DNA from: Acidobacteriota bacterium
GTDB lineage: Bacteria > Acidobacteriota > Polarisedimenticolia > Gp22-AA2
DNA: 64,000 bases
Assembly: GCA_031394595.1 (NCBI GenBank)
Contig: JANNTZ010000191.1
Coordinates: 72-64,071 of the forward strand
Direction: 5' to 3'
Under the pieces are notes generated by a model. The model saw only the letters and a program-made list of their open reading frames with translations, searched no databases and was not told where the DNA came from. A program made the translations under genes and the position numbers. Positions within the stretch are counted from its first letter, which is position 1. Every line of letters begins with the position of its first letter. Shown one piece after another: positions 38,949 through 54,734 of the stretch.

Positions 38949-38956
38949 TCATGCGC

Positions 38957-40159
38957 CTAGTTGATCTTGCCGATCAGCGTGAACATCGGCATGTACATGG
39001 AGATGACGATGCCGCCGATCATGAAGCCCAGGAACAGGATCATGACCGGTTCGAGGAGAGCCATCAGGTTTTCGACGGCCTCGTCCACCTCGTCCTCGTA
39101 GAAGTCCGCGATTTTCGAGAGCATCGTGTCGAGGGCCCCGGTCTGCTCGCCGACGCTGATCATCTGGACCACCATCGACGGGAAGACCCTGGTCTCCTCG
39201 AGGGGGCCGGCGATGGTCTTGCCCTGCTCGATGCTCTTGCGGGTCGCCATGATGGCGTCCTCGACGATCGCGTTGCCGGCCGTGCGGGCGGTGATCTCGA
39301 GGCCCTCGAGGATCGGCACACCGGACGTGATCAGCGTCCCGAGCGTGCGGCAGAATCGGGCAACGGCGATCTTCCTCATCAGGTCACCGAACACCGGCAC
39401 CTTGAGGATGATGGCGTCGATCTGCCGCTTCCCCTTGTGGGTCTTGTGATAACGGTTGAGCGCGAAGCCGGACGCGACCCCGAGGATCACGAGGACCGGC
39501 ATGTAGCGGCCGAGGAAATTGCTGGCCGCGATGGTGATCCGGGTCGGCAGCGGGAGGGTCGCGCCGAGCCCTTGGAACAGCATGGCGAACGTCGGGATGA
39601 CCTTCCACAGGATGACGACGACGACGCCGATGGCGATCGTGATGACCGCGACCGGGTAGATCATCGCGGACCGGACGGCGGCGACCAGCTTGACGTTCTT
39701 CTCGATGTAGGCTGCCAGCCGCTGCAGGATGGTGTCGAGAATACCGCCGGACTCGCCGGCGGCGATCATGTTGGCGTAAAGCGAGCTGAAAACCTTCGGA
39801 TGCTTGCGCATCGAGACCGCGAGGGTGGACCCGGACTCGACGTCCTGCCGCACCTGGAACAGGACCCTCTGGAACAGCCGGTTCTTCTGCTGCGACCCGA
39901 GGATCTCGAGGCACTGCACCAGCGGCAGCCCGGCGTCGATCATGACCGAGAACTGACGGGTGAAGATGGCGATCTCCTTCTGCTTGACGCTCCCGCCCAT
40001 CTTCGGGACCGCCAGCTCCTTCCCCTTTTCGGTGACCGCCGACACCATGATCTGCTGACGGCGCAGGAGGGCGATGACCGCGTCCTTGTTCTCGGCGGAG
40101 ACGGACCCCTCCTGCATCTTCCCCATCTTGTTCTTGCCCTTCCAGCTGTAGGTCGGCAT
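38957..40159 (-). CDS. pilC: Type IV pilus inner-membrane platform protein PilC (GspF family)
   Basis: 400 aa with two GspF repeats (IFTRQFSVMIDAGLPLVQCLEIL and RFCRTLGTLITSGVPILEGLEIT) and three TM helices. Confidence 0.9.
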   Translation of the reverse strand: MPTYSWKGKNKMGKMQEGSVSAENKDAVIALLRRQQIMVSAVTEKGKELAVPKMGGSVKQKEIAIFTRQFSVMIDAGLPLVQCLEILGSQQKNRLFQRVLFQVRQDVESGSTLAVSMRKHPKVFSSLYANMIAAGESGGILDTILQRLAAYIEKNVKLVAAVRSAMIYPVAVITIAIGVVVVILWKVIPTFAMLFQGLGATLPLPTRITIAASNFLGRYMPVLVILGVASGFALNRYHKTHKGKRQIDAIILKVPVFGDLMRKIAVARFCRTLGTLITSGVPILEGLEITARTAGNAIVEDAIMATRKSIEQGKTIAGPLEETRVFPSMVVQMISVGEQTGALDTMLSKIADFYEDEVDEAVENLMALLEPVMILFLGFMIGGIVISMYMPMFTLIGKIN

Positions 40160-40177
40160 GTCCGCTCCCTCCCCCGC

Positions 40178-41311
40178 CTACTTGCGCCCGGCGCCGGCGC
40201 GCGCCGCCTGCGTCGCCTGGGCCGTCGGCTGGTTGATGAGCCCGGATCCGCGGTTGATCATCTCCTGCAGCTCGTCGGGGTTGCTGCTGTAGGAGAGAGC
40301 AGTCGCCAGGCTGAGATGTTTCTTGAAGTACTGCGTCGCCAGGGACTGGTTGAAGGTCTGCATGCCGTACTGTGTCTGGCCGGTCTGCATCATCGAGTAA
40401 ATCTGGTGGATCTTGTCCTCGCGGATGAGGTTCCGGATGGCCGAGTTTGGCACCAGGATCTCCATGGTCAGGCAGCGACCCTTGCCCGTCGCCTTGGGCA
40501 GCAGCGCCTGGCAGAGGATCCCCTCGAGCACGAAGGACAGCTGGGCACGGATTTGCGGCTGCTGATGGGCCGGGAACACGTCGATGATCCGGTTGATGGT
40601 CTGGGCCGCCGAGTTGGTGTGCAGGGTCCCGAAGGTCAGGTGGCCCGTTTCGGCGATCCGCAGGGCGGCCTCGATCGTCTCCAGATCGCGCATCTCGCCG
40701 ATCAGGACGAAGTCGGGGTCCTGGCGGAGCACCGACTTCAGGGCGTTGGCGAACGTGTGGGTATCGGCGTGCAGCTCGCGCTGGTTGACGATGCAGCCTT
40801 TGTGGCCGTGAAGGTACTCGACCGGATCCTCGATGGTGACGATGTGGCCGCGTTCCTCGTTGTTGACCTTGTCGAGCATGGCTGCCAAGGTGGTGGATTT
40901 CCCGGACCCCGTCGGCCCGGTGACCAGGATCAGACCGCGCGGCTTCTCGCACAGCTTGGCGACGACCTCGGGCAGCCCGAGGTCCTGGAAGGTCTTGATC
41001 TCCCAGGGGATGGTCCGGAAGGCGGCCGCCACCGCGCCACGCTGGCTGAAGATGTTGGCGCGGAACCGGGCCAGACCCCGGACACCGAACGAGAAGTCCA
41101 GCTCCAGGTTCTCCTCGAAGCGATGCTTCTGGGTATCGGTGAGGACGCTGTAGACCAGCGCCTTGGTCTCCGGCGCCGTCAGTGGCGGCAGCTGCAGGGG
41201 GACCAGCTTGCCGTCGACGCGGATCTGCGGCGGCGAGTTGGTCGTGATATGCAGGTCGGTCCCCCCCTGCTCGACGAGGGTCTTCAACAGCTGGTGCAGC
41301 GTCACCGACAT
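40178..41311 (-). CDS. pilT: Twitching-motility retraction ATPase PilT
   Basis: MSVTLHQLLKTLVEQGGTDLHI. Walker A GPTGSGKSTT. Asp box, Walker B and His box (TLHTNSAAQTINRIID). The AIRNLIRE motif is characteristic of PilT. ATG 41311 has a GAGGAGG RBS. Confidence 0.9.
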   Translation of the reverse strand: MSVTLHQLLKTLVEQGGTDLHITTNSPPQIRVDGKLVPLQLPPLTAPETKALVYSVLTDTQKHRFEENLELDFSFGVRGLARFRANIFSQRGAVAAAFRTIPWEIKTFQDLGLPEVVAKLCEKPRGLILVTGPTGSGKSTTLAAMLDKVNNEERGHIVTIEDPVEYLHGHKGCIVNQRELHADTHTFANALKSVLRQDPDFVLIGEMRDLETIEAALRIAETGHLTFGTLHTNSAAQTINRIIDVFPAHQQPQIRAQLSFVLEGILCQALLPKATGKGRCLTMEILVPNSAIRNLIREDKIHQIYSMMQTGQTQYGMQTFNQSLATQYFKKHLSLATALSYSSNPDELQEMINRGSGLINQPTAQATQAARAGAGRK

Positions 41312-41321
41312 CCAGGCCTCC

Positions 41322-43043
<1,722 letters not shown>

Positions 43044-43112
43044 CCGGACCTCACTGGAAACGCGCCCGGTCTGTCCCGGGCGGTTGGAGAGCCCTATACG
43101 ATCACCCGTGTC

Positions 43113-43141
43113 AAATTATGTACGCCAACAATTTGTGTCAA
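43113..43141 (-). promoter_or_regulatory. Candidate sigma-70 promoter for pilB operon (TTGACA-17-TAATTT) in AT-rich leader
   Basis: Minus strand: cacTTGACAcaaattgttggcgtacaTAATTTgac, ~70 nt upstream of the pilB ATG. It lies in the unusually AT-rich region 43100-43260. Confidence 0.3.
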
Positions 43142-43357
43142 GTGAAATGCGTAAAAATACCTACGGAATTTTGACGCTGTGACAACACGCGTCTAACGGC
43201 AAACGACTAGAACTCACAAGCTATTGAATATAAATAACTTATTTTCTTTCAGCTGCGGGGATGTTGGAACGAGTCTTGCTGGAGAATTCCCAATAATGGC
43301 AGGCCGGAGGCCCGGCTGACTGGCCGGTACCGCCGGAATCGCGGGCAATCAGGACGG

Positions 43358-43594
43358 TCAGTCGGGCTCGAAACGGATGTCGACCGAGGATTTCTGCCCA
43401 AGGGCACGCTTGAGGACGGCCAGCACGCCGGGGTCGACGCCGCGGCCTTCGAGGCTGGCGATGGCGGCCGCGTCGATGCTGTAAGTGAAATCGTCGAGTG
43501 ACTCCTCGACCAGTTCCTCCTGGAGGATCTCCAGGTGAGCGTCGTCGATGGCGCCGACTTCCGCGTCCGTGTCGTTGTCGAGAAGCTTGATCAT
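43358..43594 (-). CDS. Small acidic protein (78 aa), unknown function
   Basis: MIKLLDNDTDAEVGAIDDAHLEILQEELVEESLDDFTYSIDAAAIASLEGRGVDPGVLAVLKRALGQKSSVDIRFEPD. High GC3. GGAGAGG RBS 7 nt upstream. ATGA overlap with the upstream micro-protein. Confidence 0.5.
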   Translation of the reverse strand: MIKLLDNDTDAEVGAIDDAHLEILQEELVEESLDDFTYSIDAAAIASLEGRGVDPGVLAVLKRALGQKSSVDIRFEPD

Positions 43595-43794
43595 GGTGTT
43601 CCTCTCCCGCCCGGCGCGTACAGCCGCCCGATGAACGCGAAGTAGACCGCAAAAGCCACGGCACCGGCCAGCGCCAGCGCCCCGCGCCACGCCGCCCCCG
43701 GCCCGTCGGTCCGCGCAAACTCCCAGCCGCCGTAGTACAGCAGGAGCAGAACGGCGGCAGCGATCAGGACCCGGTGTGCCTGGAACAGGTTCAT
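43591..43794 (-). CDS. Small two-TM membrane protein (67 aa), unknown function
   Basis: MNLFQAHRVLIAAAVLLLLYYGGWEF...ALALAGAVAFAVYFAFIGRLY. High GC3. Lies 4 nt after the phosphoesterase stop. Confidence 0.4.
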   Translation of the reverse strand: MNLFQAHRVLIAAAVLLLLYYGGWEFARTDGPGAAWRGALALAGAVAFAVYFAFIGRLYAPGGRGTP

Positions 43795-43797
43795 GAC

Positions 43798-44538
43798 TCA
43801 CACTCCAAGAAGGAGTCGGTCGCCCAGCCATGGAGGCAACCCCGACTTCTGGATCTTACTCCGGGCCGCCTCGATCGCGTACGGCACACGCAGCACGGTG
43901 ACCGTCCTCGCCGTGTCGTCATAGAGGGCGAACGCCGCCCGCGGATCGCGGTCGCGTGGCTGGCCGACCGACCCGGGGTTGACCAGGAATCGCCGGCCGG
44001 GATCCAGGGTCACCTGCACGCGGTCGCCACGGGCCGCCGACCAGTGGACACGGTCGCCGTGGTGGACGAAGGCACCCGGAAGGTGCGTGTGGCCGAAGAA
44101 ACAGACATCGAAGGAGGCGAACTCGAAGGCGCGCCGCGCCTCGCCCGCGTGGAGCAGGTAGGCATCCTCGTCGGAGGGGCTGCCGTGGCTGAGCATCAAG
44201 CCGGGCGCCACCTCGACCGGGCCCCGCGGAAGGTCCCGGAGCCAGTCGAGGACTTCCGGCTCGAGGGCCCGGCGCGTCCATTCCACGGCGGCACGGGCCT
44301 GATCGTTGAACGCCTCCATCGGTTCGAGATCGGCGACAACCTTGTCGTGGTTGCCACGCACGACGCAGAGCCCGGGGAGCTCACGCACGGCCGCAACCAC
44401 CGGTCCGGGGTCCGCGCCGTAGCCGACCAGGTCGCCGAGGATGATCGCCCGGTCGTATCCGAGACCGCGGGCCGCGGTCAGGACCGCCCCCGTCGATTCG
44501 ATATTGCCATGCAGGTCCGACAGGATCAGGTAGCGCAT
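43798..44538 (-). CDS. Metallophosphoesterase (calcineurin-like, YfcE/MJ0936-type)
   Basis: Motifs LSDLHGN, ILGDLVGYG, GNHD, and GHTH near the C-terminus. 246 aa. Confidence 0.75.
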   Translation of the reverse strand: MRYLILSDLHGNIESTGAVLTAARGLGYDRAIILGDLVGYGADPGPVVAAVRELPGLCVVRGNHDKVVADLEPMEAFNDQARAAVEWTRRALEPEVLDWLRDLPRGPVEVAPGLMLSHGSPSDEDAYLLHAGEARRAFEFASFDVCFFGHTHLPGAFVHHGDRVHWSAARGDRVQVTLDPGRRFLVNPGSVGQPRDRDPRAAFALYDDTARTVTVLRVPYAIEAARSKIQKSGLPPWLGDRLLLGV

Positions 44539-45038
44539 CAGATCAGAGTCGCGATCCGCTCCGCGACCTCCTCAGGTGCCAGACCTGCAGCATCCACCCG
44601 GATCGGGGCCAACCGGTAGGCGGCCAGGCGGGACCGATACAGAGCCTCCGCCTGCGCGCGGTCCTTCAGGAGCGGCCGCGCCGGCGAACCATCGCACCGG
44701 GCCAGCGCCTGTTCGACCGGCACATGGATCCAGACGGCGCGTCCGATCTGGTCGATGAGCACGCGGTTCGACTCCTGGACATAGGTCCCGCCGCCACAGG
44801 CGACGACGATTCGACTGCGGTCACGCAGTTCCGCGATCAGGCGGCCCTCCAGCCGGCGGAAGAACGCCTCACCGTCCGCCTCGAAGATCCGGGGGATGGT
44901 CCGTCCGTCTGCGGCCACCGCCAGTTCGTCGAGGTCCACGAAGTCCCAACCGATCAGACGGGCCAAGGCGCGGCCGACTGTCGTCTTGCCGGCCCCCATG
45001 AAGCCGACCAGGAAGACCGGCTTGCGCGGGTCCCGCAT
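44538..45038 (-). CDS. aroK: Shikimate kinase
   Basis: P-loop VGFMGAGKTTVGRALA. DLD substrate motif. ~166 aa. Confidence 0.85.
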   Translation of the reverse strand: MRDPRKPVFLVGFMGAGKTTVGRALARLIGWDFVDLDELAVAADGRTIPRIFEADGEAFFRRLEGRLIAELRDRSRIVVACGGGTYVQESNRVLIDQIGRAVWIHVPVEQALARCDGSPARPLLKDRAQAEALYRSRLAAYRLAPIRVDAAGLAPEEVAERIATLI

Positions 45039-45055
45039 GCTGGCGTTCGTCGTCG

Positions 45056-46420
<1,365 letters not shown>

Positions 46421-46439
46421 CGCGTCAGGCCAGGGCCCG

Positions 46440-46928
46440 TCAGGCCGGGGCCGCGAGGCGGACCCGGAATAGGGGCTCGCCATACTCGACGGGCTGACCA
46501 TTGGCGACGAGGGCCTCGAGGACCTCCCCGTCGCACTCGGATTCGATCTCGTTCATCAACTTCATCGCCTCGACGACGCACAGGACCTGCCCCTTCTTGA
46601 TCCGGTCCCCCACTTCGACGAACGGGCGCGACGATGGCGAGCTGGAGCGGTAGAACGTGCCGACGATCGGGGACTTGATGGTGTGCGCGTCGGGCGGCCC
46701 CGCTGCGGCCTGGCGGGCATCCGGACCGGCGGCCGCGACAGGCCCGGCCGGTGCGGCGGCCTGGGCCGGCACCAGGGCAGGGGCCATCAGACCGTCCGTC
46801 GGCACCGCGGTCTTCTTGACCAGCTTGATCTTGAACCCCTCGCGCTCGAGCTCGAATTCGACGAAGCTGCTGCTCTCGATGTAGTCCATCAGTTCCTTGA
46901 TGTCGCTGTCCAGGTATCCACCGCCCAT
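46440..46928 (-). CDS. accB: Acetyl-CoA carboxylase biotin carboxyl carrier protein
   Basis: Biotinylation motif [10 protein letters not shown] and an Ala/Pro-rich linker. ATG 46928 has a GGAGGG RBS 5 nt upstream. Confidence 0.85.
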
Positions 46929-47048
46929 GCGGCCCTCCGGATGCACCAAGCCCCCCCGGCCGGCTGTTCCCGACCGGAGCCCCGCCCGGCGGCGTAGTGT
47001 ACTCCAAACGGTCGGAAGGACGGGGGTGCCGGGTGTGGGCCACGGCCT

Positions 47049-47396
47049 TCAGGCGATCGCCTGTCTCAGCGCCAGGCCGGCCCGCCAGGCCTCGTAACGG
47101 GCGCGCCCCGGCAGACAGTCGCGGCCAACGAGAAGACAGAGATAGTAGTCCTGGCCGAGAGCGCGCAGGATCATCAGCCCGGACGCCGTCGTGATGGAGA
47201 TTTCCTCAGGGGTTTCCCGCCCGCCGGCCGGCCCGGTCGTCCGCTTCACCAGGGTGATCCCTTCCGCCGACACGAGATCGATGTTGACCTCGCTGCCGAG
47301 GGTGATCTTCTCGACCGGGATGCCGTCGAGCCCCACGACCGAAACCGCCAGCGCCCCCGGCGTCCTGTCGAGCGTGTCCTGGAGTATGACCTTCAT
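47049..47396 (-). CDS. Roadblock/LC7 domain protein (MglB/MglC-like), 115 aa
   Basis: alpha-beta-beta-alpha-beta pattern (ALAVSVVGLDGIPVEK...DLVSAEGITLVKRT...ISITTASGLMILRALGQDYYLCLLVG). ATG 47396 overlaps the TPR gene stop as ATGA. No mglA-like GTPase follows. Confidence 0.6.
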   Translation of the reverse strand: MKVILQDTLDRTPGALAVSVVGLDGIPVEKITLGSEVNIDLVSAEGITLVKRTTGPAGGRETPEEISITTASGLMILRALGQDYYLCLLVGRDCLPGRARYEAWRAGLALRQAIA

Positions 47397-48574
47397 GGCG
47401 TGCGGGCCTCCCTGTGGGCCGTCTGGATCCGGCCGAGCCACTCTGCAAGGCGGTCGATCCGGGCCTGCGTGCCCGGATGGGCAATCGGCGCCGGCGGGGA
47501 TTCCGATCGCTCGGGATCCCGGGAGGCGGCCATCGCGGTCTCCCGCGCGCCGCCTGTCGCGGTGTCCAACGCGGCGGCCGGCGTGGCAACCGGCCCGGCG
47601 ACCGGCATGGCGCCCGCCGTGCCGGCCGCGACAAGTTCCTGAAGCCGCTGCCGGGCGCGCGTGTTCCCCGGATCGACCCGCAGCATCGCCCTGTAGACCT
47701 CGAGGGCCCGATCGACCAGCCCCTGCCGGAGGTAGAGCTCGGCCAGGGTGTTGGTCTGGAGCGCGTCGGTGGAATCTCCCACATCGCTGCCGATCTCCGG
47801 CCCCTGATCGAAGCCCGGTGCCTTCACCCCGACTCCCGACCCCGATGTGGGGGCTGCCGGTCCCGCCACGGACGGCGGGCCGGCGATCGCCGTCATCACG
47901 CCGGCGGCGGGAACCGCCGGAGGTCGATCCGGAACCACCCATGGCCGCGGGGATCCGCCCGGAGGTTTCCCGAGACCAGCGGCCGCCAGATCGTCGCTGT
48001 GATAGTCGAGCACCGGGTCCACGGGGCGCGGGGCCGACGGCGCGGGCGGCGCCGACGGGCGCGTCACCACGGGGCGCGCCCCCGGGCGCGTTACCGCGGG
48101 TGGCGCCACCGGGGGCCTCACGGCAGGCGCCCCGTCGATCAAATCCTGCAGCAGGGCCTTCACCTCGATGTCCCCGGGATAGTGAGCGAGGATCGCCCGG
48201 TAGGTTTCGGCGGCGGCCGGCGTGTCACCCAGCTTGCGGTGCACTTCGGCGAGCAGCTTGGCCGCCAGATGGTTCTCCGGGGCGATTGCCACCACCTCGC
48301 CCAGGGTGCGTCGCGCCTCCTCGAGGTTGCCGCATTCGAGATAAGTGCGTCCCAGGGCGATGCGGGCGGTGTGGTAGGTGGGATGGCGCTGCAGTCCCTC
48401 GAGGCAGACCTTGACGGCCTCTTCGTACTCCCCCGCGCGGCGGTATTCCTCGGCCAGCTGCAGGAAGGCGCGCGAGAAGGGATCGCGCGCGAACTTCTGC
48501 TTCAGGGCCTCGACGACCGGGTTGCGCTGTGCTGGACGTTTGGCCATGCGTTCGACGGGATCCGCCGCGGGCAT
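47393..48574 (-). CDS. TPR-repeat protein with central Pro-rich linker
   Basis: N-terminal TPRs (AEEYRRAGEYEEAVKVCLEGLQRHP..., LGRTYLECGNLEEARRTL...), a ~150-aa P/A/V-rich linker, and a C-terminal TPR (LAELYLRQGLVDRALEVYRAMLRVDP). Confidence 0.65.
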   Translation of the reverse strand: MPAADPVERMAKRPAQRNPVVEALKQKFARDPFSRAFLQLAEEYRRAGEYEEAVKVCLEGLQRHPTYHTARIALGRTYLECGNLEEARRTLGEVVAIAPENHLAAKLLAEVHRKLGDTPAAAETYRAILAHYPGDIEVKALLQDLIDGAPAVRPPVAPPAVTRPGARPVVTRPSAPPAPSAPRPVDPVLDYHSDDLAAAGLGKPPGGSPRPWVVPDRPPAVPAAGVMTAIAGPPSVAGPAAPTSGSGVGVKAPGFDQGPEIGSDVGDSTDALQTNTLAELYLRQGLVDRALEVYRAMLRVDPGNTRARQRLQELVAAGTAGAMPVAGPVATPAAALDTATGGARETAMAASRDPERSESPPAPIAHPGTQARIDRLAEWLGRIQTAHREARTP

Positions 48575-48604
48575 CGGACCTCACGGGCCGTCCGCCCGGC
48601 CCGG

Positions 48605-48633
48605 ATTATAGGGAGCGCACGGGACCTTGTCAA
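48605..48633 (-). promoter_or_regulatory. Sigma-70 promoter, perfect consensus TTGACA-17-TATAAT, driving TPR-Roadblock operon
   Basis: Minus strand: TTGACAaggtcccgtgcgctcccTATAAT (plus 48633..48605). ~25-nt 5' UTR with a GAGGT RBS before ATG 48574. Confidence 0.55.
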
Positions 48634-48640
48634 AATCGAA

Positions 48641-48664
48641 GGCCCCCGGATGACTCCGGGGGCC
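48641..48664 (-). terminator. Terminator-like hairpin after pilQ-lipoprotein operon
   Basis: GGCCCCCGGA-ugac-UCCGGGGGCC, a 10-bp GC stem followed on the minus strand by uucgauuuug. It sits 20 nt after the lipoprotein stop and abuts the -35 of the next promoter. Confidence 0.4.
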
Positions 48665-48683
48665 AGTTCGGTCCGGCCGGACT

Positions 48684-49160
48684 TCAGGGGATGAAAGTGA
48701 CGCCGACCGGGTGACTGAAGTTGACCGGCCGGCCGTTCACGTCGCGCCCCTCGACATTGACCGTCCCCACGACCGTGGACCCGGCGGCCTCGGAACCCGA
48801 CGCCACGATGTCGAGCGTCAACGTGGCGGTGCCGCCGATCGAGACGTAGCCGCTGTTGACCATGCCGGACACGTCCGGAACGATGGCGGTCGGTGAGAAG
48901 ACCACGGAGTAGGTCAGGAACACGACATCATTGAAGAACGAACCCGCGCTTCCCGTCCGGTCCTCCACCGTCAGGCTGAGCGTGACGCTGGTGTTGAGCC
49001 CGTCCCCGACCCCCTCGCCCGCGACGCCCACGGCGGTCACCAGCACGACCGCTTCGGCGCGGTCGCCCTCGTTGCCGATATCGTTGCACGCCACCCCGGC
49101 CGCCACGAGGACGAGCCCCAAAGCGACGGCGCGCAGCGCCCTGCCCGTCACGCTCTTCAT
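48684..49160 (-). CDS. Small beta-rich lipoprotein (158 aa) translationally coupled to pilQ
   Basis: Signal peptide with a lipobox-like LVAAGVAC. Mature part is rich in V/G/T/S (beta-sandwich-like). ATG 49160 overlaps the pilQ stop as ATGA. Confidence 0.6.
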   Translation of the reverse strand: MKSVTGRALRAVALGLVLVAAGVACNDIGNEGDRAEAVVLVTAVGVAGEGVGDGLNTSVTLSLTVEDRTGSAGSFFNDVVFLTYSVVFSPTAIVPDVSGMVNSGYVSIGGTATLTLDIVASGSEAAGSTVVGTVNVEGRDVNGRPVNFSHPVGVTFIP

Positions 49161-51820
49161 GACCGTCCCTCCTGCGTCTCAGCCTTCTTCGAAATCCGCG
49201 GCGTGATGAAGATCAGCAGCTCGGTGTTCTTCCGGTTGATCGACTTGCTCTTGAACAGCCAGCCAATCCCGGGGATCTTCGACAGACCCGGCACTCCGGC
49301 CGTGCTCACCGACTCGTTCAGCTTGAAGATGCCGCCGATGACGGCGGTCCCGCCGTCCGCCACCAGGATCTGGGTCTGGGCGCGCTCCGTGATGATGGGC
49401 GGAACGTCGCCGACGCGGTTGACGAAATCCGGGGACGAGTTGTCGACCCGGATGTCCATGATCACCGTCCCTTCGTTGGTGATCTGGGGCGTCACCTCGA
49501 GTTTCAGCGAGGCGGAGATGAACTCGACGTTGATCTGGGTCGCCGTCGTGCTGACGACCGGGATCTGCGTGCCCTGCTCGATCGTCGCCTTGATGTTGTT
49601 CTGCGTGGCGATGCGCGGCGAGGAGAGGACCTTGACATCGCCGTTGAGTTCGAACGCCTGCAGCGTCATGTCGAGCGTGACCGAGTCGAGGACGTTGCCG
49701 AAACTCAACCCGAGCATCCCGGCAGTCGCCGGCGCCGGCAGCGAGACGTCGTAGTCCAGGCTCGCCCGGTGCGGGAACGTCAGGTTGGTCTGGGTCCCCC
49801 GGGCGGGCGAGGCCTCGCCGTGGACACCCCAGATGATGCCGAGGTCACGCTCGAACTCGCGGTCGGTTTCGACGATGCGCGCCTCGATGACGACCTGGGG
49901 CGTCTGCTCGTCGAGGGTGTCGATGAGCCGGTTGATCGAGTCCTGGCGATCCACGATATCGGTGATGATCAGGGTGTTGGTCCGGTCGTCCATGACCACG
50001 TCGCCGCGCTTGGACATCATCTTCTTGAGGATCGGAGTCACGTCCTTCGCCTTGGCGTAGGAGAGTGCCCGCGTGAAGGTGATCGGCTCCTGCTCCAATA
50101 CCTGGGCTTCGAGCAGGGCCTTCCGGGCGGCCGACTCGGAGGCCAGTTTCTGCGTCGTCGCGATCCGGATGACGTTGTTCTCGAAGACCTTGTCCAGACC
50201 GTTGTTCTTGAGAATGATGTCGAGCGCCTGATCCTCGGGGACGTTCTCGAGGACGATCGTCAGCGACCCCGCGACCGCCGGATCGAGGACGATGTTGTAG
50301 CCGGTGATCTCGTGGAACAGGCGGAACACGTCCTTGAGATCGGCGTCCTTGAAGTTCAGGGAGATCCGCTTGCCGGTGTACTTTGGCCCGGTGTCCGAGA
50401 TCGCCCGGGATCGGAACCGGCCCCCGGAGATCAGCCGGCCGGTCTCCTGGCTCGCGGGGCGGGGCCGCGGGCGGGGCGCGCCGGAGGCCTCGACTCGGGC
50501 GTCCCCCGATGCGAGGAGCGGGTTCTGGGCCGGCTCGACGACCGGCACCGCCATGGCATCGCTCCCGGAGGCACCGTCGGCTCCCTCTGCCTGCGGGGCC
50601 GCCTCGGTCGGCGGGACCTCTATGATCGATGCGACCGGCACGACATCGCCGGAATCGGCCGGTGGCACCTCGGCCGTGAGCGGCTCCGGGGCCGTTGCCG
50701 CATCCGGAGCCGGTGCGCTCCTGGCCAGCCGCACCGCCTCCTCGGAGAAGTCAACGACCAATCCATTTTCGGTCGCGACCACCGCGTAAGGCCGCGGGGC
50801 GCTCAGATCCAGCACCACACGGACAATGGGTCGGGGCCGGGTCGCGAACTGGGCCACGCGCACACGGGTCAGGATCTGCGAGTCCACCGGCACGAGCTTG
50901 GTTCCGGTCCGATCGAGAACACCGGGGAGATCGAGGACCAGCCGCGGCGGGTTCTGAAGCTCGAAATGCTCGTGGGGCAGGCTCCCGTCGGCCGTCAGGA
51001 CAACCGCCCGCTCGGGATCCGTGCCACGCGACTGCACGGACAGCAACGTCCGGGCCACCGCGCCGGCGGGGACGGCTCCGCGCGTCACATGGACCGGTCC
51101 GGTCGCCGGCGGAGGCGTGGCGGTATCAGTGGCCGTGGATCCGGCGGCCGGTGCCGCTTCTGGCTCCACTGAAGGCAGCGTTTCGGGCGCGGGTTCTGGT
51201 GCGGCCGCCGTCTGTGTGGCCTGTCGTTCGGCCGACTGCGCTGCCGGGTCCATCGGCATCTCGAGCGGCTCGAGGGCGGCGTCTTCCTCCGGTCCGGCCG
51301 AGGCCGCGGCGGTGTCCGCCGGTGTTTCGCCCGGCATGCCGGTCCCCTGGTCCGCCATCACGGACGGGGTGGGGGCGTTGGTGCCGTCGCCAAGCGACGG
51401 GAAATCGATGACCAGGTCGTTGCCATCCAGACGAATGGCGTGCTGCGATGCCAGGATGTTGTGGAATTCGAACTTGGCGATCCGTCCGCCATCCACGCTC
51501 TCGACACTCGAGACCTGCACCCTTTCGACCTGCGGCGTGCCGATGGCGACATCGGGTGCGAGGCTCTCCACCTGGACGTCCAGGGCTTCGAGCACGAGTG
51601 TGTTGGGATCGGGCTGGTAGGAGGTGTAGCTGAACGGGTAATTCCCGTGCAGGACCACTTCCGTTCCCGCCGGTGTCGACGCATGGTCGATCCCGTTGAT
51701 GACCACCGCGGACGGCGCGGACAACGCCGTCTGACCCGGCTCGCTGACGGGCGGATTCCCCGAGCAGCGCAGGGCGGCCGCGGCGATCGTGAGCAGAAGC
51801 GCGACCTTCCCGAACCTCAT
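49157..51820 (-). CDS. pilQ: Type IV pilus secretin PilQ (AMIN domains, N0/N1, secretin C-domain)
   Basis: 887 aa with a signal peptide. The C-terminal secretin domain carries motifs ...VLSSPRIATQNNIKATIEQGTQIPV... and GGTAVIGGIF...VPGLSKIPGIGWLFKSKS...LLIFITPRI. A long acidic P/A/T/E low-complexity linker spans aa ~140-330. Confidence 0.9.
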   Translation of the reverse strand: MRFGKVALLLTIAAAALRCSGNPPVSEPGQTALSAPSAVVINGIDHASTPAGTEVVLHGNYPFSYTSYQPDPNTLVLEALDVQVESLAPDVAIGTPQVERVQVSSVESVDGGRIAKFEFHNILASQHAIRLDGNDLVIDFPSLGDGTNAPTPSVMADQGTGMPGETPADTAAASAGPEEDAALEPLEMPMDPAAQSAERQATQTAAAPEPAPETLPSVEPEAAPAAGSTATDTATPPPATGPVHVTRGAVPAGAVARTLLSVQSRGTDPERAVVLTADGSLPHEHFELQNPPRLVLDLPGVLDRTGTKLVPVDSQILTRVRVAQFATRPRPIVRVVLDLSAPRPYAVVATENGLVVDFSEEAVRLARSAPAPDAATAPEPLTAEVPPADSGDVVPVASIIEVPPTEAAPQAEGADGASGSDAMAVPVVEPAQNPLLASGDARVEASGAPRPRPRPASQETGRLISGGRFRSRAISDTGPKYTGKRISLNFKDADLKDVFRLFHEITGYNIVLDPAVAGSLTIVLENVPEDQALDIILKNNGLDKVFENNVIRIATTQKLASESAARKALLEAQVLEQEPITFTRALSYAKAKDVTPILKKMMSKRGDVVMDDRTNTLIITDIVDRQDSINRLIDTLDEQTPQVVIEARIVETDREFERDLGIIWGVHGEASPARGTQTNLTFPHRASLDYDVSLPAPATAGMLGLSFGNVLDSVTLDMTLQAFELNGDVKVLSSPRIATQNNIKATIEQGTQIPVVSTTATQINVEFISASLKLEVTPQITNEGTVIMDIRVDNSSPDFVNRVGDVPPIITERAQTQILVADGGTAVIGGIFKLNESVSTAGVPGLSKIPGIGWLFKSKSINRKNTELLIFITPRISKKAETQEGRS

Positions 51821-52398
51821 AAGCGACCCTCCTCCGCTGTCGTCAGCCTCTTGGTCACGTCCCTGTACGGCTTGATGCTGCGGGGATCGTTGACGTCCTG
51901 GCGGAACGCCACCGTCCCCGTATTCCGTTCGATGCGGACGATTTTGCCGTCGTACAGGGTATCCCCCACCCGCATGAAGTACCCCTTGTTGTCGCTCCCG
52001 TTGAAGAAGGCGATCGCTTCACGCCCCTTCTGGACGATACCCACGAGATCGACTTCCGAGATCAGCATGCCCGCAATACCGCGGGGGCGCGGGCCCTTGC
52101 CGATGGCGTTCAGGGTGTCGACGAGCGAACGGAAGGGATCGCGTCGTCCGGCCGGGTCGTAGGTAAACCCGCGGCCGGAAAGCATCGCCTCGTTGTCCTG
52201 CATGATCTGGTTGATCGTCGCGGCGTCCGCAGGGGACACCGCCGATCCACCTGCAGCCGGGGCTTCCGTCTCGCCCTGGGTTGGGGGAACCTCGGCCGGG
52301 GCGGCCTCCTCGGCAGTCACGAAGGACGGGGCGGCCAGGACCAGAAGGACCGCCAGCCCGAGAAGGCCGGCGATGCCGATCCACGCGATGCGCGTCAT
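51817..52398 (-). CDS. pilP: Type IV pilus assembly protein PilP
   Basis: N-terminal TM/signal anchor, an Ala/Pro/Glu linker, and a C-terminal beta domain (GIVQKGREAIAFFNGSDNKGYFMRVGDTLYDGKIVRIERNTGTVAF). ATGA coupling with pilO and pilQ. Confidence 0.75.
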   Translation of the reverse strand: MTRIAWIGIAGLLGLAVLLVLAAPSFVTAEEAAPAEVPPTQGETEAPAAGGSAVSPADAATINQIMQDNEAMLSGRGFTYDPAGRRDPFRSLVDTLNAIGKGPRPRGIAGMLISEVDLVGIVQKGREAIAFFNGSDNKGYFMRVGDTLYDGKIVRIERNTGTVAFRQDVNDPRSIKPYRDVTKRLTTAEEGRL

Positions 52399-52973
52399 TG
52401 CGTCGCCTCCTGTGCCGGTGTCGAGTCGTCGTAGACGAATGTGGTCGCGGTAAAGGTGGAACCGATCGACCCGCGCCCCGTCTGGGCGTTGCTGATATTG
52501 ACCCCGCTGACATTGATGATGCGGGAGTACTTGCTGATCCGGTCAAAGAACACGCCGAGGTCGTGGTAGTCCCCGTTCACCTCCATGGTGATGGGGAATT
52601 CCTTGTAGAACTCGACGGCACGCAGGCTGCCGGGGCTGAAGCGCTTCAGATCCAGGTTCGACTGATCGGCGAGGTTCTTGACCCATTTCAGGAGCTCGCC
52701 GGTTTCCGGCTCCGTCGGCAGGATGGCCAGCAGGTCGCTCAACTTGGCTTGAAGGTTTTCGATCTCGCGCTCGAATTCCGGCAGCTTGGCCTCGATCGCC
52801 TGGCCCTTGCGGATCTCCTCCTGGAGCCCGCGGAGCTGGGTGGTCAGGGAGGCGTTCCGATCCTTCATCTGCCCGAAGTTTGGATAGGCCATCCAGGCCA
52901 CCGCGACGAGCGCGACGGCCATGGCGGCCACGACCGCGAATTGTCCCCAGAACGGCAGCTTCTTGAAGTCCAT
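52395..52973 (-). CDS. pilO: Type IV pilus assembly protein PilO
   Basis: N-terminal TM, a coiled-coil, and a C-terminal ferredoxin-like domain. 192 aa. Confidence 0.8.
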   Translation of the reverse strand: MDFKKLPFWGQFAVVAAMAVALVAVAWMAYPNFGQMKDRNASLTTQLRGLQEEIRKGQAIEAKLPEFEREIENLQAKLSDLLAILPTEPETGELLKWVKNLADQSNLDLKRFSPGSLRAVEFYKEFPITMEVNGDYHDLGVFFDRISKYSRIINVSGVNISNAQTGRGSIGSTFTATTFVYDDSTPAQEATQ

Positions 52974-52988
52974 CGCGATGCCCCCCGG

Positions 52989-53594
52989 CTATCCGCCCGA
53001 CGCGGGGCGGTTCTCCACACTTTCCTGTCCCTGCGGGTTTGGCAGGAACTGGCAGGTGAGTGAGAACTGCACGCCGACCGGAATCGAGGAAATGGAACCC
53101 ATGACGACGTTTTCGAAGTAGCGTGAACCCGTCAGGTTGTTGTAGAAATTCGAAACCGCGTTGTAGGTGGTCGCCTTGCCGTTGATCTGGACGTTGAACC
53201 CCGCCTCGGTCAGAGAATCGAGCCACAGGAAATCCGGCAGCTGGCGGCTCACCTCGTCGAGCAGGTGGACCGGGCCGCTCTGGTTGTGCTTGAGCTGTGT
53301 GATGAGCGTGATCTTCCGCTGCAGCAGCTCCTTCTTGGCCTTGTACTCCTCGCCCTTCTTGATGATGGCCTGCAGGCGTTCCTTCTCCTTCTCGGCCTTG
53401 GCGATCTCGGCGACCAGCGTGTGCTGTTCTACGGCCAGGTCATACCATTGCCAGCCCACGTAGGCGACGGCCAAGAGCACCACCCCGGCCATCAGGACGT
53501 TCTGACCCAGGGTGCCGACGCCGTTGAACCTCGGCTCCCGGATGGTGCGGGCCTTGCCCTGCTGCGCGGTCGTGAGAAGGTTGATCTTGATCAT
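52989..53594 (-). CDS. pilN: Type IV pilus assembly protein PilN
   Basis: MIKINLL start and a TM helix AGVVLLAVAYVGWQWY. ATG 53594 overlaps the pilM stop as ATGA. The ORF-track N-terminal extension is rejected. Confidence 0.8.
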   Translation of the reverse strand: MIKINLLTTAQQGKARTIREPRFNGVGTLGQNVLMAGVVLLAVAYVGWQWYDLAVEQHTLVAEIAKAEKEKERLQAIIKKGEEYKAKKELLQRKITLITQLKHNQSGPVHLLDEVSRQLPDFLWLDSLTEAGFNVQINGKATTYNAVSNFYNNLTGSRYFENVVMGSISSIPVGVQFSLTCQFLPNPQGQESVENRPASGG

Positions 53595-54658
53595 CGGTTG
53601 GTGTCCCCCGCCCGGCGGGCTGCCAGGCCGACGGCGATCGACACGCTGGCGCTCATCTCCTCGATCGTCTCGGGTGAGAAACCCTTCCCGATCTGCACGC
53701 GCTGGAAGGGGTTCAGCGGCTCCACGGTGATCCCGAAGCGCTCGGCGAGCGCCTCGCGCAGGTGCGGTACGCGCGAGGATCCGCCGGCGATCACCATCTT
53801 CTCGATGTTCTCGCCCGGCGTCGTGTTCTTGAAGAAGTCCACGGTCTTCTGGATCTCGCCCCCGACGAAATCGTTCACCGAGGCCAGGATCGGGGTCACG
53901 TTCTCCACCGGGATCCCCTCGACCTCCTCGCCACGCTTCAGGCTTTCCGCCTGCTCGAAGCTGAGGTTCAGCTCCTTGCGGATGGCGTCGTTGTATTGGT
54001 TGCCGCCGACCGAGATGTCGCGCCAGAAGATCGACTGCGTGCCCTTGAGGATGGCGACGTTGGTGGTGGAGGCGCCGATATTGATCAGCGCCTGGCACAC
54101 GGTGCCGTCGGTCTCGTAGTTCATCTCAAAGCAGTTCTGCAGCGCGAACACGTCCACATCGACGAGCATCGGGTTGCGTCCCGCCTGGCTCACGACCGAG
54201 GTGTAGTCGTTGATCTTGTCCTTCTTGGCGGCAACCAGGAGGACATCCATGTTCGCCTCGCCACCGCCCGCACCCTTCAGGACCTGGTAGGCCAGGTTCA
54301 CGTCCTGGACGTCGAACGGGATGTACTGCTCCGCCTCCCAGGGGATGACCTCGGCCAGTTCCTCCTCGGACGTGGCCGGAAGCGAGATCTTCTTGATGAT
54401 GACGCTGTGACCCGAGAGCGCGATGGCGACTTCGCCACCCTTGATCTTGCGGGCCGCGAAGGCCCGCTGGATCGAATCGATCACCGAGCCGGCATCCATG
54501 ATGGCCCCGTCGACGATCGCTTCGGGCGCCAGGCGCTCCAGCGCCATATTCAGCAGCTGGTAGCCCTTCCCCTTGCCCAGTTCCTTGAGTTCGACGATCT
54601 TCACCGCGCTCGATCCGATGTCAAGACCGATGAAGTTTCTGCCTTTCGAGAAGAACAC
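53591..54658 (-). CDS. pilM: Type IV pilus assembly ATPase-like protein PilM (actin/FtsA fold)
   Basis: GLDIGSSAVKIVEL N-terminus. Actin-like motifs and a C-terminal MVIAGGSSRVPHL. 355 aa. GTG start with a GGGGGA RBS 7 nt upstream. Confidence 0.9.
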   Translation of the reverse strand: MFFSKGRNFIGLDIGSSAVKIVELKELGKGKGYQLLNMALERLAPEAIVDGAIMDAGSVIDSIQRAFAARKIKGGEVAIALSGHSVIIKKISLPATSEEELAEVIPWEAEQYIPFDVQDVNLAYQVLKGAGGGEANMDVLLVAAKKDKINDYTSVVSQAGRNPMLVDVDVFALQNCFEMNYETDGTVCQALINIGASTTNVAILKGTQSIFWRDISVGGNQYNDAIRKELNLSFEQAESLKRGEEVEGIPVENVTPILASVNDFVGGEIQKTVDFFKNTTPGENIEKMVIAGGSSRVPHLREALAERFGITVEPLNPFQRVQIGKGFSPETIEEMSASVSIAVGLAARRAGDTNR

Positions 54659-54734
54659 CGTCGGATCCCCCTTAAGTCCCGGGCGTCACGGCAGTTGCAA
54701 CCCACATCAGCGTGATCCCCTTTTCACGGAATTC

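What the first reader, a model, noticed from the sequence alone, without database searches (positions are those of the whole stretch)
48684..49160. Small beta-rich lipoprotein translationally coupled (ATGA) to the PilQ secretin: candidate pilotin or secretin accessory
A 158-aa protein with a signal peptide and lipobox-like Cys. Its composition is V/G/T/S-rich, with no TPRs.

Its start codon overlaps the pilQ stop, and a terminator-like hairpin follows it. It is therefore the last gene of pilMNOPQ.

Known T4P pilotins are TPR lipoproteins (PilF/PilW/Tgl). Small beta-rich pilotins (AspS/OutS class) are known only for T2SS/T3SS secretins.

A non-TPR lipoprotein coupled to pilQ is not standard.
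Basis: partly seen in the sequence, partly recalled or inferred. Interest (0 to 1): 0.55.

Follow-up and report, generated by a model that had tools for sequence, protein, structure and literature searches.

The report
Ig-like lipoprotein gene coupled to pilQ
A small, unannotated all-beta lipoprotein gene is fused by an ATGA overlap to the end of the type IV pilus secretin gene pilQ in an uncultured acidobacterial lineage, and is most likely a secretin accessory (pilotin or belt) of a different fold from the classical TPR pilotins, although no function has been shown.

Summary
Window 48684-49160 (-) encodes a 158-aa protein. Its ATG overlaps the pilQ stop (ATGA), AGGAGG lies 7 nt upstream, and a terminator hairpin followed by a perfect sigma-70 promoter lies downstream.

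It meets the PROSITE lipoprotein rule. Cys25 is the only Cys and is invariant in the family. No Pfam or NCBIfam model matches it.

AlphaFold gives a confident seven-strand Ig-like sandwich on an ~11-residue tether. An exhaustive search finds only 31 clusters, all about 160 aa, in Acidobacteriota (Ca. Polarisedimenticolia).

In 16 distinct loci the gene directly follows pilQ, with the ATGA overlap in 14. Sister lineages carry remote homologues or positional analogues in the same slot.

Two related MAGs have deleted the gene. Their PilQ also lacks part of the beta-lip region.

Verdict: a probable PilQ-associated outer-membrane lipoprotein, a new variant of a known kind, inferred from context and fold only. 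Moderate interest.

The parts
48684..49160 (-). Gene for the 158-aa lipoprotein (stop codon included). It is the last gene of the pilMNOPQ transcription unit.
   Evidence: ORF listing. Family of 31 clusters, all about 160 aa. Always found directly after pilQ.
49089..49160 (-). Signal peptide, residues 1-24: n-region with K2 and R7, then a hydrophobic h-region ending in G-V-A.
   Evidence: PS51257 rule met. Predicted as a helix, residues 3-26, in the AF2 model.
49086..49088 (-). Cys25, the predicted lipidated first residue of the mature protein. It is followed by the nearly invariant Asn26.
   Evidence: Translation gives CNDIGNEGDRAE. C25 is invariant and N26 is at least 90% conserved. It is the only Cys in the protein.
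49053..49085 (-). Acidic, flexible tether of about 11 residues (26-36) between the lipid anchor and the folded domain.
   Evidence: No secondary structure for residues 27-36 in the AF2 model. The 10-residue blocks covering 21-30 and 31-40 average pLDDT 56 and 72, against about 79-97 in the blocks covering the folded domain.
48687..49052 (-). Seven-strand Ig-like beta-sandwich domain, residues 37-158. Conserved motifs: R68, FFNDV (75-79) and G138-x-D140-x-x-G143-R-P-V.
49168..49173 (-). Shine-Dalgarno AGGAGG, 7 nt before the ATG and embedded in the last codons of pilQ.
   Evidence: Sequence. CAGGAGG or GGAGG is conserved at the same place in relatives.
49157..49160 (-). ATGA junction where the pilQ stop TGA overlaps the lipoprotein ATG (translational coupling).
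   Evidence: The same 4-nt overlap occurs in 22 of 25 loci, or 14 of 16 distinct sequences.
49157..51820 (-). pilQ, the type IVa pilus secretin (887 aa), with AMIN, N0, N3 and Secretin domains and no S domain.
   Evidence: Pfam and NCBIfam TIGR02515. The best solved relative is M. xanthus PilQ, 3JC8.
49736..49831 (-). PilQ beta-lip segment, residues 664-695 (WGVHGEASPARGTQTNLTFPHRASLDYDVSLP), with the invariant F682-P683. This is a candidate contact site and is inference only.
   Evidence: Translation. F and P are invariant in 40 PilQs down to 46% identity. Nine residues here are deleted only in the two PilQs whose lipoprotein gene is lost. The region lies between N3 and the Secretin domain, which is the beta-lip (PMC10653833).
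48641..48664 (-). Intrinsic-terminator-like hairpin (10 bp, 9 G-C) followed by a T-rich tail. It marks the end of the pilMNOPQ-lipoprotein unit.
   Evidence: Positionally conserved in L001 and L014. A similar hairpin-like repeat is visible in the L022 and L026 intergenic sequences.
48605..48633 (-). Perfect sigma-70 promoter, TTGACA-17-TATAAT, for the downstream TPR and Roadblock genes. It is a separate transcription unit and not part of the feature.
   Evidence: Conserved in L001 and L014. The hexamers are also visible in the L022 and L026 intergenic sequences.

Best explanation
The gene encodes a lipoprotein that is made in fixed proportion to PilQ through translational coupling.

**Proposed steps, all inferred**
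1. The protein is exported and lipidated on Cys25. The +2 residue is Asn, not Asp, so by the E. coli sorting rule it would go to the inner leaflet of the outer membrane.
2. It hangs on an ~11-residue tether as a single Ig-like beta-sandwich.
3. There it binds PilQ close to the membrane.

**Two modes the data cannot separate**
- It may act as a transient pilotin that holds the PilQ beta-lip until the multimer inserts.
- It may act as a permanent 1:1 belt around the barrel base, as DR_1364 does on the Deinococcus PilQ-type secretin.

**What is shown**
- Gene structure, the lipobox, the fold model, conserved coupling and synteny, and the family's distribution.

**What is inferred**
- Lipidation, outer-membrane location, binding to PilQ, and any role in assembly or stability.
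For: - **Coupling and synteny.** The gene follows pilQ directly in 25 loci (16 distinct sequences). It has the ATGA overlap in 22 of them, a 15-19 nt gap in the other three, and a conserved SD. This holds down to about 25% protein identity.
- **Operon end.** A terminator and then a strong promoter follow the gene, in the window and in relatives, so it ends the pilMNOPQ unit.
- **Lipoprotein signature.** The PS51257 rule is met. The single Cys is invariant, the residue before it is always small, and Asn is nearly invariant at +2.
- **Fold.** The AF2 model is confident: a short tether plus a seven-strand sandwich.
- **Same slot in sister lineages.** Lineages with PilQ at 46-60% identity carry a 185-209-aa lipobox ORF 12-23 nt after pilQ. 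Two are remote homologues by hhalign: probability 97%, E 6e-11, and probability 90%, E 1.7e-6.
- **Co-loss.** The two MAGs that deleted the gene leave an ATGA-started 19-codon remnant in L022. Their PilQ alone lacks 9 residues of the beta-lip, including the otherwise invariant FP motif. T4aP pilotins are proposed to bind the beta-lip (PMC10653833).
Against: - There is no direct evidence of interaction, localisation or phenotype.
- Profile searches of PDB sequences find no sequence similarity to DR_1364, even at E up to 10.
- The gene is absent after pilQ in L022, L026 and L037, so it is not universally required.
- L037 PilQ keeps the FP motif without an adjacent lipoprotein gene, so the co-loss is a single event with one counter-example.
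- The lipobox lacks the classical Leu at -3.
- Lol sorting rules are untested in Acidobacteriota.
- I could not check whether these genomes also encode a Tgl/PilF-type TPR pilotin.
Confidence: 0.55

Rival explanations
1. It is an inner-membrane-anchored periplasmic component of the alignment complex. It would be a second PilP-like beta-sandwich lipoprotein that links PilQ N0 or AMIN domains to PilNO, compensating for a PilP that has lost its lipid anchor.
For: - The PilP homologue here (51817-52398) contains no Cys at all and has only a hydrophobic N-terminus, whereas classical PilP is a lipoprotein (PilP Pfam hit is weak, E 0.0028).
- The PilP and GspC HR domains are beta-sandwiches (general knowledge).
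- Co-transcription with pilMNOPQ fits this role as well.
Against: - The +2 residue is a nearly invariant Asn, not the Asp that retains lipoproteins in the inner membrane in E. coli.
- There is no PilP Pfam hit in any of 32 members.
- The gene sits after pilQ and is coupled to it, not to pilNOP.
Confidence: 0.1
2. It is a surface-exposed lipoprotein that sits on the extracellular lip of the secretin as a cap, or acts as a pilus-associated adhesin, rather than being a periplasmic accessory.
For: - The PilQ segment lost together with the gene is in the beta-lip, the part that reaches the outer leaflet.
- In D. radiodurans a separate lipoprotein, DR_0940, forms the secretin cap.
- Sister lineages add PKD- or TIG-domain lipoproteins next to the gene, and such domains are typical of surface proteins.
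- One family member carries C-terminal thrombospondin type 3 repeats.
Against: - No surface-export signal is known or detectable.
- An ~11-residue tether suits a position just under the membrane.
Confidence: 0.1
3. It is an envelope lipoprotein with no specific role in secretin biogenesis, kept after pilQ by operon inertia in one lineage.
For: - The gene is lost without visible disruption of the rest of the pil cluster in L022 and L026, and is absent in L037.
- The fold is generic.
- The family is small and lineage-restricted.
Against: - The 4-nt overlap and the SD are preserved over sequence divergence to about 25% identity.
- The same slot is occupied by lipoproteins in lineages whose PilQ is only 46-60% identical.
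- The motifs R68, FFNDV and GxDxxGxPV indicate purifying selection on a specific surface.
Confidence: 0.15
4. It is a gate-keeper that plugs or seals the idle secretin to preserve the outer-membrane barrier, functionally like SlkA/SlkB of P. aeruginosa.
For: Secretin-interacting plug proteins exist for PilQ (PMC13392014). Production in step with PilQ would suit a plug.
Against: - Slk proteins are soluble periplasmic proteins encoded away from pilQ, not lipoproteins.
- A short outer-membrane tether would hold the domain outside the barrel rather than in its lumen.
Confidence: 0.05

Closest known systems
DR_1364 ('GspP') belt lipoprotein of the Deinococcus radiodurans secretin complex (PDB 8CO1; PMC10828601)
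   Same: - Both are small lipoproteins (155 versus 158 aa) with an N-terminal Cys and a ~10-residue flexible tether, followed by one Ig-like beta-sandwich.
- The partner is a PilQ-type secretin without an S domain.
   Different: - No sequence-level homology was detected with HMM profiles.
- DR_1364 is not encoded next to its secretin gene (locus tags DR_1364 versus DR_0774).
- The window protein has a larger domain (about 122 versus about 95 residues).
- The belt arrangement is solved for DR_1364 and only hypothesised here.
T4aP pilotins PilF, PilW and Tgl
   Same: - They are outer-membrane lipoproteins dedicated to PilQ.
- They are proposed to act on the PilQ beta-lip (PMC10653833). That is the PilQ region that changed when the window family's gene was lost.
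   Different: - They are six-TPR alpha-helical superhelices of about 250 aa, usually encoded away from pilQ.
- The window protein is all-beta, has no TPR hit and is translationally coupled to pilQ.
T2SS and T3SS pilotins (PulS/OutS/GspS, AspS, MxiM, ExsB/YscW)
   Same: They are small outer-membrane lipoproteins that bind their secretin 1:1. Some are beta-type (MxiM is a cracked barrel).
   Different: - They bind the C-terminal S domain, which PilQ here lacks.
- OutS is a helical bundle.
PilP (T4aP alignment-complex lipoprotein)
   Same: It is a lipoprotein with a beta-sandwich domain that contacts PilQ and is encoded in the pilMNOPQ operon.
   Different: A separate PilP homologue is already present between pilO and pilQ. 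There is no PilP Pfam match, and the +2 residue does not suggest inner-membrane retention.

Membership tests
Bacterial lipoproteins (Lgt/LspA substrates) | Signal peptide with a positive n-region, a hydrophobic h-region and a lipobox ending in [AGS]-Cys within residues 15-35 (PROSITE PS51257). | tested here: met
   The pattern and its side rules are met in the window protein and four close homologues. Cys is invariant and the -1 residue is always A, G or S in 32 members. One member, P0026, has Pro at -4 and fails the strict pattern.
Bacterial lipoproteins (Lgt/LspA substrates) | Actual lipidation and outer- versus inner-membrane sorting. | not testable with these tools
   SignalP and LipoP were not available. 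Asn at +2 rather than Asp suggests the outer membrane by the E. coli rule only.
T4aP TPR pilotins (PilF/PilW/Tgl; TIGR02521, NF033762) | Six TPR motifs forming an alpha-helical superhelix. | tested here: not met
   No TPR or pilotin family hit in Pfam or NCBIfam. The AF2 model is all-beta.
T4aP TPR pilotins (PilF/PilW/Tgl; TIGR02521, NF033762) | Required for PilQ multimerisation and outer-membrane localisation. | not testable with these tools
   Needs genetics or biochemistry.
T2SS pilotins PulS/OutS/GspS and AspS | Binds the C-terminal S domain of the secretin. | tested here: not met
   The PilQ Secretin domain ends at residue 876 of 887, so there is no S domain.
T2SS pilotins PulS/OutS/GspS and AspS | Helical-bundle (PulS/OutS) or AspS fold and family signature. 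| tested here: not met
   No Pfam hit. The model is an all-beta sandwich. OutS is a helical bundle.
T3SS pilotins (MxiM, ExsB/YscW) | Family signature or fold match. | tested here: not met
DR_1364 / GspP secretin belt lipoprotein | Lipoprotein with a short tether and a single Ig-like beta-sandwich. | tested here: met
DR_1364 / GspP secretin belt lipoprotein | Detectable sequence homology to DR_1364. | tested here: not met
   Profile HMMs of A2 and A5 against all PDB sequences did not report 8CO1 chain Q3 at E up to 10. The DR_1364 sequence could not be obtained for HH-type comparison.
DR_1364 / GspP secretin belt lipoprotein | Forms a ring with the secretin's symmetry around the barrel base. 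| not testable with these tools
   The structure tool returns no coordinates or PAE, so a co-fold could not be evaluated.
PilP (PF04351) | PilP family signature, with the gene between pilO and pilQ. | tested here: not met
   No PF04351 hit in 32 members. A separate weak PilP homologue occupies that slot.
TsaP | LysM peptidoglycan-binding domain. | tested here: not met
   No LysM hit.

The most novel reading that the evidence does not exclude
Acidobacteriota and neighbouring lineages use an unrecognised class of T4aP secretin partner. It would be an Ig-like outer-membrane lipoprotein, co-translated 1:1 with PilQ, that engages the PilQ beta-lip around the conserved FP motif. It would replace the TPR pilotins (Tgl/PilF/PilW) as the assembly factor or remain as a permanent belt. 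It would be distantly related to the Deinococcus DR_1364 belt, making Ig-like secretin lipoproteins an old and widespread alternative to TPR pilotins.
Probability: 0.25. Interest if true: 0.65.

Novelty: new variant of a known kind. Interest (0 to 1): 0.45.

Why it matters
Secretins need helper lipoproteins. For type IVa pili the only accepted helpers are TPR proteins, studied in Proteobacteria and Myxococcus.

This family is tightly pilQ-coupled, non-TPR and unannotated, with look-alikes in the same slot in sister lineages. It suggests that a second solution, an Ig-like lipoprotein, is used in a large and poorly studied part of the bacterial tree.

It links to the single structural precedent from Deinococcus. 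It also gives a concrete, testable candidate contact: the PilQ beta-lip FP motif against the conserved R68 / FFNDV / GxDxxGxPV elements.

Practically, it gives a name and a hypothesis to a set of 'hypothetical proteins', and it is a candidate for a new Pfam or NCBIfam family.

Tried and rejected
- **Family libraries.** Pfam and NCBIfam scans of the protein and of all 32 family members found nothing above threshold. The only hit was Ig_VWA7 at E 0.047.\n- **Plasmids.** tblastn against the plasmid collection found no match.\n- **Genome scan with A1.** It returned no relative, because the patterns were too specific. The location was taken instead from the published domain order.\n- **Fused co-fold of lipoprotein and PilQ.** Considered and dropped, because the tool returns no coordinates or PAE, so an interface could not be judged.\n- **FP-motif/lipoprotein co-loss as a rule.** Rejected as a rule, because L037 PilQ keeps FPNH without an adjacent lipoprotein gene.\n- **Downstream TPR protein as a Tgl-type pilotin.** Rejected. 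It has no signal peptide or lipobox and is far below the PilW and Tgl cut-offs.\n- **Other lipobox-pattern ORFs in the window.** They are an O-antigen-ligase-like protein and a glycosyltransferase.\n- **L036 post-pilQ lipoprotein.** It has no significant profile similarity (probability 3.8%) and is treated only as a positional analogue.

Full report
**1. The observation**

The ORF at 48684..49160 (minus strand) encodes 158 aa. Its ATG at 49160-49158 shares two bases with the TGA of the upstream gene, giving ATGA. A canonical AGGAGG lies at 49173-49168, 7 nt before the ATG and inside the last codons of the upstream gene.

The upstream gene (49157..51820) is a bona fide type IVa pilus secretin. 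NCBIfam TIGR02515 scores 362 bits against a cut-off of 284, and Pfam finds AMIN, N0, Secretin_N (585-642) and Secretin (724-876). PilO and a weak PilP lie further upstream. Relatives show the full pilM-N-O-P-Q order.

Downstream of the ORF there is a 10-bp, 9-GC hairpin with a T-rich tail at 48664-48641. A 12/12 TTGACA-17-TATAAT promoter follows at 48633-48605. The hairpin folds at -32.3 kcal/mol, z = -2.66.

The terminator-then-promoter arrangement recurs with different stem sequences in L001 and L014. Similar hairpin-like repeats and the same promoter hexamers are visible in the L022 and L026 intergenic sequences.

**2. Lipoprotein signal and composition**

SignalP and LipoP were not available, so I applied the PROSITE PS51257 rule. 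It requires K/R in the first seven residues, six uncharged residues, the lipobox pattern, and the Cys between positions 15 and 35. The window protein and four close homologues all pass, with Cys25.

Cys25 is the only cysteine. It is invariant in 32 family sequences, always preceded by A, G or S, and nearly always followed by Asn. The classical Leu at -3 is missing.

The mature part is rich in V, G, T and S and has net charge -10. No Pfam or NCBIfam family, TPR or otherwise, matches this protein or any of the 32 members.

**3. The family and its distribution**

A full HMMER pass over 1.84 billion cluster representatives found 31 clusters. All are 157-171 aa apart from a few truncated or extended ones.

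The alignment shows invariant M1, C25 and R68, and the motifs FFNDV and G-x-D-x-x-G-x-P-V.

A scan of species-representative genomes with PilQ placed the lineage in Acidobacteriota, Candidatus Polarisedimenticolia (formerly subdivision gp22). The protein is lineage-restricted but is not an orphan.

**4. Conservation of the pairing**

An HMM of the family, searched against six-frame ORFs of every fetched locus, found the gene in 25 loci, always on the pilQ strand.

Mapping starts and stops shows the following:
- The upstream ORF always ends with the PilQ C-terminus (...IFITPRISKK...).
- The junction is the same ATGA overlap in 22 loci, or 14 of 16 distinct sequences.
- In the other three loci (L011, L012, L013) the gap is 15-19 nt.

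The SD-like CAGGAGG is also conserved. This holds for members only 24-30% identical to the window protein.

The wider synteny is also conserved: pilQ, lipoprotein, TPR, Roadblock, accB, accC, aroK, and further on pilB-pilT-pilC.

**5. Losses**

Of 11 genome loci that extend past the pilQ 3' end, nine have the gene and two (L022, L026) do not. In those two, pilQ is followed after about 200 nt by the TPR gene.

L022 keeps the ATGA junction and a 19-codon remnant, MTMGGGTSCSRPRNVSIVP*. Its end resembles family C-termini such as ...GVSIVP. This points to a secondary internal deletion.

The PilQ proteins of these two MAGs, and only these among 16 aligned, lack 8+1 residues. The deletion removes the motif FPH from the segment WG...GTQTxLxFPHxxxxxYDV.

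F682 and P683 are invariant in 40 PilQs down to 46% identity. M. xanthus PilQ has LIFPNN at the equivalent place.

This segment lies between N3 and the Pfam Secretin domain. According to Herfurth et al. 2023 that interval is the beta-lip region. It inserts into the outer membrane, and Tgl, PilF and PilW are proposed to bind it in its unfolded state (PMC10653833).

The co-loss is suggestive, but it is one event. L037 is a more distant locus whose PilQ keeps FPNH with no lipoprotein gene after pilQ, so it is a counter-example.

**6. Sister lineages**

I sampled five loci whose PilQ is 46-60% identical.

| Locus | ORF after pilQ | Gap after pilQ | Lipobox | hhalign vs family profile A2 |
|---|---|---|---|---|
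| L033 | 185 aa, unannotated | 23 nt | LAGGC | probability 97%, E 6e-11 |
| L034 | 194 aa, unannotated | 14 nt | LAAAC | probability 41% |
| L035 | 209 aa, unannotated | 20 nt | GTSC | probability 90%, E 1.7e-6 |
| L036 | 186 aa, unannotated | 12 nt | VWSC | probability 3.8%, not significant |
| L037 | none | - | - | - |

None of these ORFs has a Pfam hit.

L035 and L036 add PKD- or TIG-domain proteins next to the small lipoprotein.

The slot immediately after pilQ is therefore commonly filled by a small lipoprotein well beyond the HMMER-detectable family.

**7. Structure**

AlphaFold2 with the 32-sequence alignment gives mean pLDDT 87 and pTM 0.71. The model has a signal helix (3-26), a linker without secondary structure (27-36), and seven strands forming a sandwich (37-155).

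From the paper, this chain is DR_1364 ('GspP'), a 155-aa lipoprotein. Residues 61-155 are modelled and the ~10 residues after the lipidated Cys are disordered. It forms a 15-mer belt around the base of the barrel of DR_0774.

DR_0774 is a PilQ-type secretin that lacks an S domain. The cap subunit DR_0940 has 172 modelled residues, which does not fit a chain listed at 142 residues.

Two results argue against a specific relationship:
- Foldseek does not rank 8CO1 in its top 50.
- Profile searches of PDB sequences do not detect DR_1364.

The relation is therefore a good structural and architectural analogy, possibly remote homology, but membership is not established.

**8. Mechanism proposed**

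*Shown*
- A conserved lipobox protein with an Ig-like domain on a short tether.
- Translational coupling to pilQ over large divergence.
- The operon ends right after the gene.

*Inferred*
- The protein is lipidated and sorted to the inner leaflet of the outer membrane. This rests on Asn at +2 and the E. coli rule.
- It is made roughly 1:1 with PilQ.
- It binds PilQ close to the membrane.
- It acts either as a transient pilotin on the beta-lip or as a permanent belt as in Deinococcus.

By strand parity in the model, the conserved elements R68, FFNDV and GxDxxGxPV would fall in loops at the tether-proximal end of the sandwich. This is my inference from topology. No coordinates were available.

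I put 0.55 on this family of explanations.

**9. Rivals**

| Rival | Main argument against | Confidence |
|---|---|---|
| Inner-membrane PilP-like component | Asn at +2, no PilP signature, coupling to pilQ rather than pilNOP | 0.10 |
| Surface-exposed cap or adhesin | The match is to the belt subunit, not the cap subunit | 0.10 |
| Unrelated passenger lipoprotein | Conserved coupling, and analogues in the same slot in sister lineages | 0.15 |
| Slk-like plug | Slk proteins are soluble and unlinked to pilQ | 0.05 |

In favour of the PilP-like rival, the local PilP has no Cys at all. In favour of the cap or adhesin rival are the beta-lip co-loss, the DR_0940 precedent, and the PKD and TIG neighbours.

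**10. Comparison with known systems and novelty**

- It is not a TPR pilotin: the defining TPR fold was tested and not met.
- It cannot be an S-domain-binding T2SS or T3SS pilotin, because PilQ has no S domain.
- The closest known thing is the DR_1364 belt.
- No paper in the searchable library links Acidobacteria pilQ to such a lipoprotein.

I rate it a new variant of a known kind, a secretin accessory lipoprotein, with moderate interest. It is a clean, conserved and unannotated family with a testable contact hypothesis, but in uncultured organisms and without any functional evidence.

Noticed in passing
window 47393-48574 (-) and 47049-47396 (-): A 393-aa TPR protein with no signal peptide and a ~115-aa Roadblock/LC7-like protein (Pfam E 0.015 here; Robl_LC7 on record for the L011 homologue) form their own unit behind a perfect sigma-70 promoter. 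By my coordinate calculation the two genes overlap by 4 nt; this junction was not read from the sequence. The pair is syntenic with pilQ and accBC across the lineage. It may be a cytoplasmic MglB-like polarity or regulatory module linked to the pilus genes.
   Followed up: partly
window 51817-52398 (-): The PilP homologue (weak PF04351 hit, E 0.0028) contains no cysteine at all and has only a hydrophobic N-terminus. Unlike classical PilP, it cannot be a lipoprotein.
   Followed up: partly
window 51764-51820 (-), PilQ residues 1-19: The PilQ N-terminus MRFGKVALLLTIAAAALRCSGNPP carries a Cys19 that is invariant in four PilQs. Arg at -1 does not fit a lipobox. The role of this conserved Cys near the mature N-terminus is unexplained.
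   Followed up: no
L022 8650-8860; L026 2650-2860: Two related MAGs have lost the lipoprotein gene. L022 retains the ATGA junction and a 19-codon remnant whose end resembles family C-termini. Both loci still show a hairpin-like repeat and the TTGACA/TATAAT hexamers. Their PilQ carries a 9-residue beta-lip deletion that removes the otherwise invariant FP motif.
   Followed up: yes
L035 7241-7978; L036 6009-7535: In sister lineages the small post-pilQ lipoprotein is followed by larger Ig-domain proteins. One is a PKD-domain lipoprotein (lipobox LVSAC) and the other a 508-aa TIG-domain protein. A TPR protein comes next. DR_1364 was itself annotated as IPT/TIG-like.
   Followed up: partly
P0017 (L011 1735-2370) and P0016: Two family members carry C-terminal extensions. 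P0017 has thrombospondin type 3 (calcium-binding) repeats, Pfam TSP_3 E 1.8e-4. P0016 has a Cys-rich tail.
   Followed up: no
window ~38950-54700 (-): The pilus genes are split by housekeeping genes in a conserved order: pilMNOPQ, lipoprotein, TPR, Robl, accB, accC, aroK, metallophosphoesterase, and then pilB-pilT-pilC. aroK lies near pilQ, as in Pseudomonas and Neisseria (the latter from general knowledge).
   Followed up: no
L023; P0045, P0072, P0080: Some near-identical PilQ contigs are labelled Verrucomicrobiia, Binatia or Saccharimonadales in their MAG records. Given 56-79% identity to Polarisedimenticolia PilQ, these are probably binning errors.
   Followed up: no
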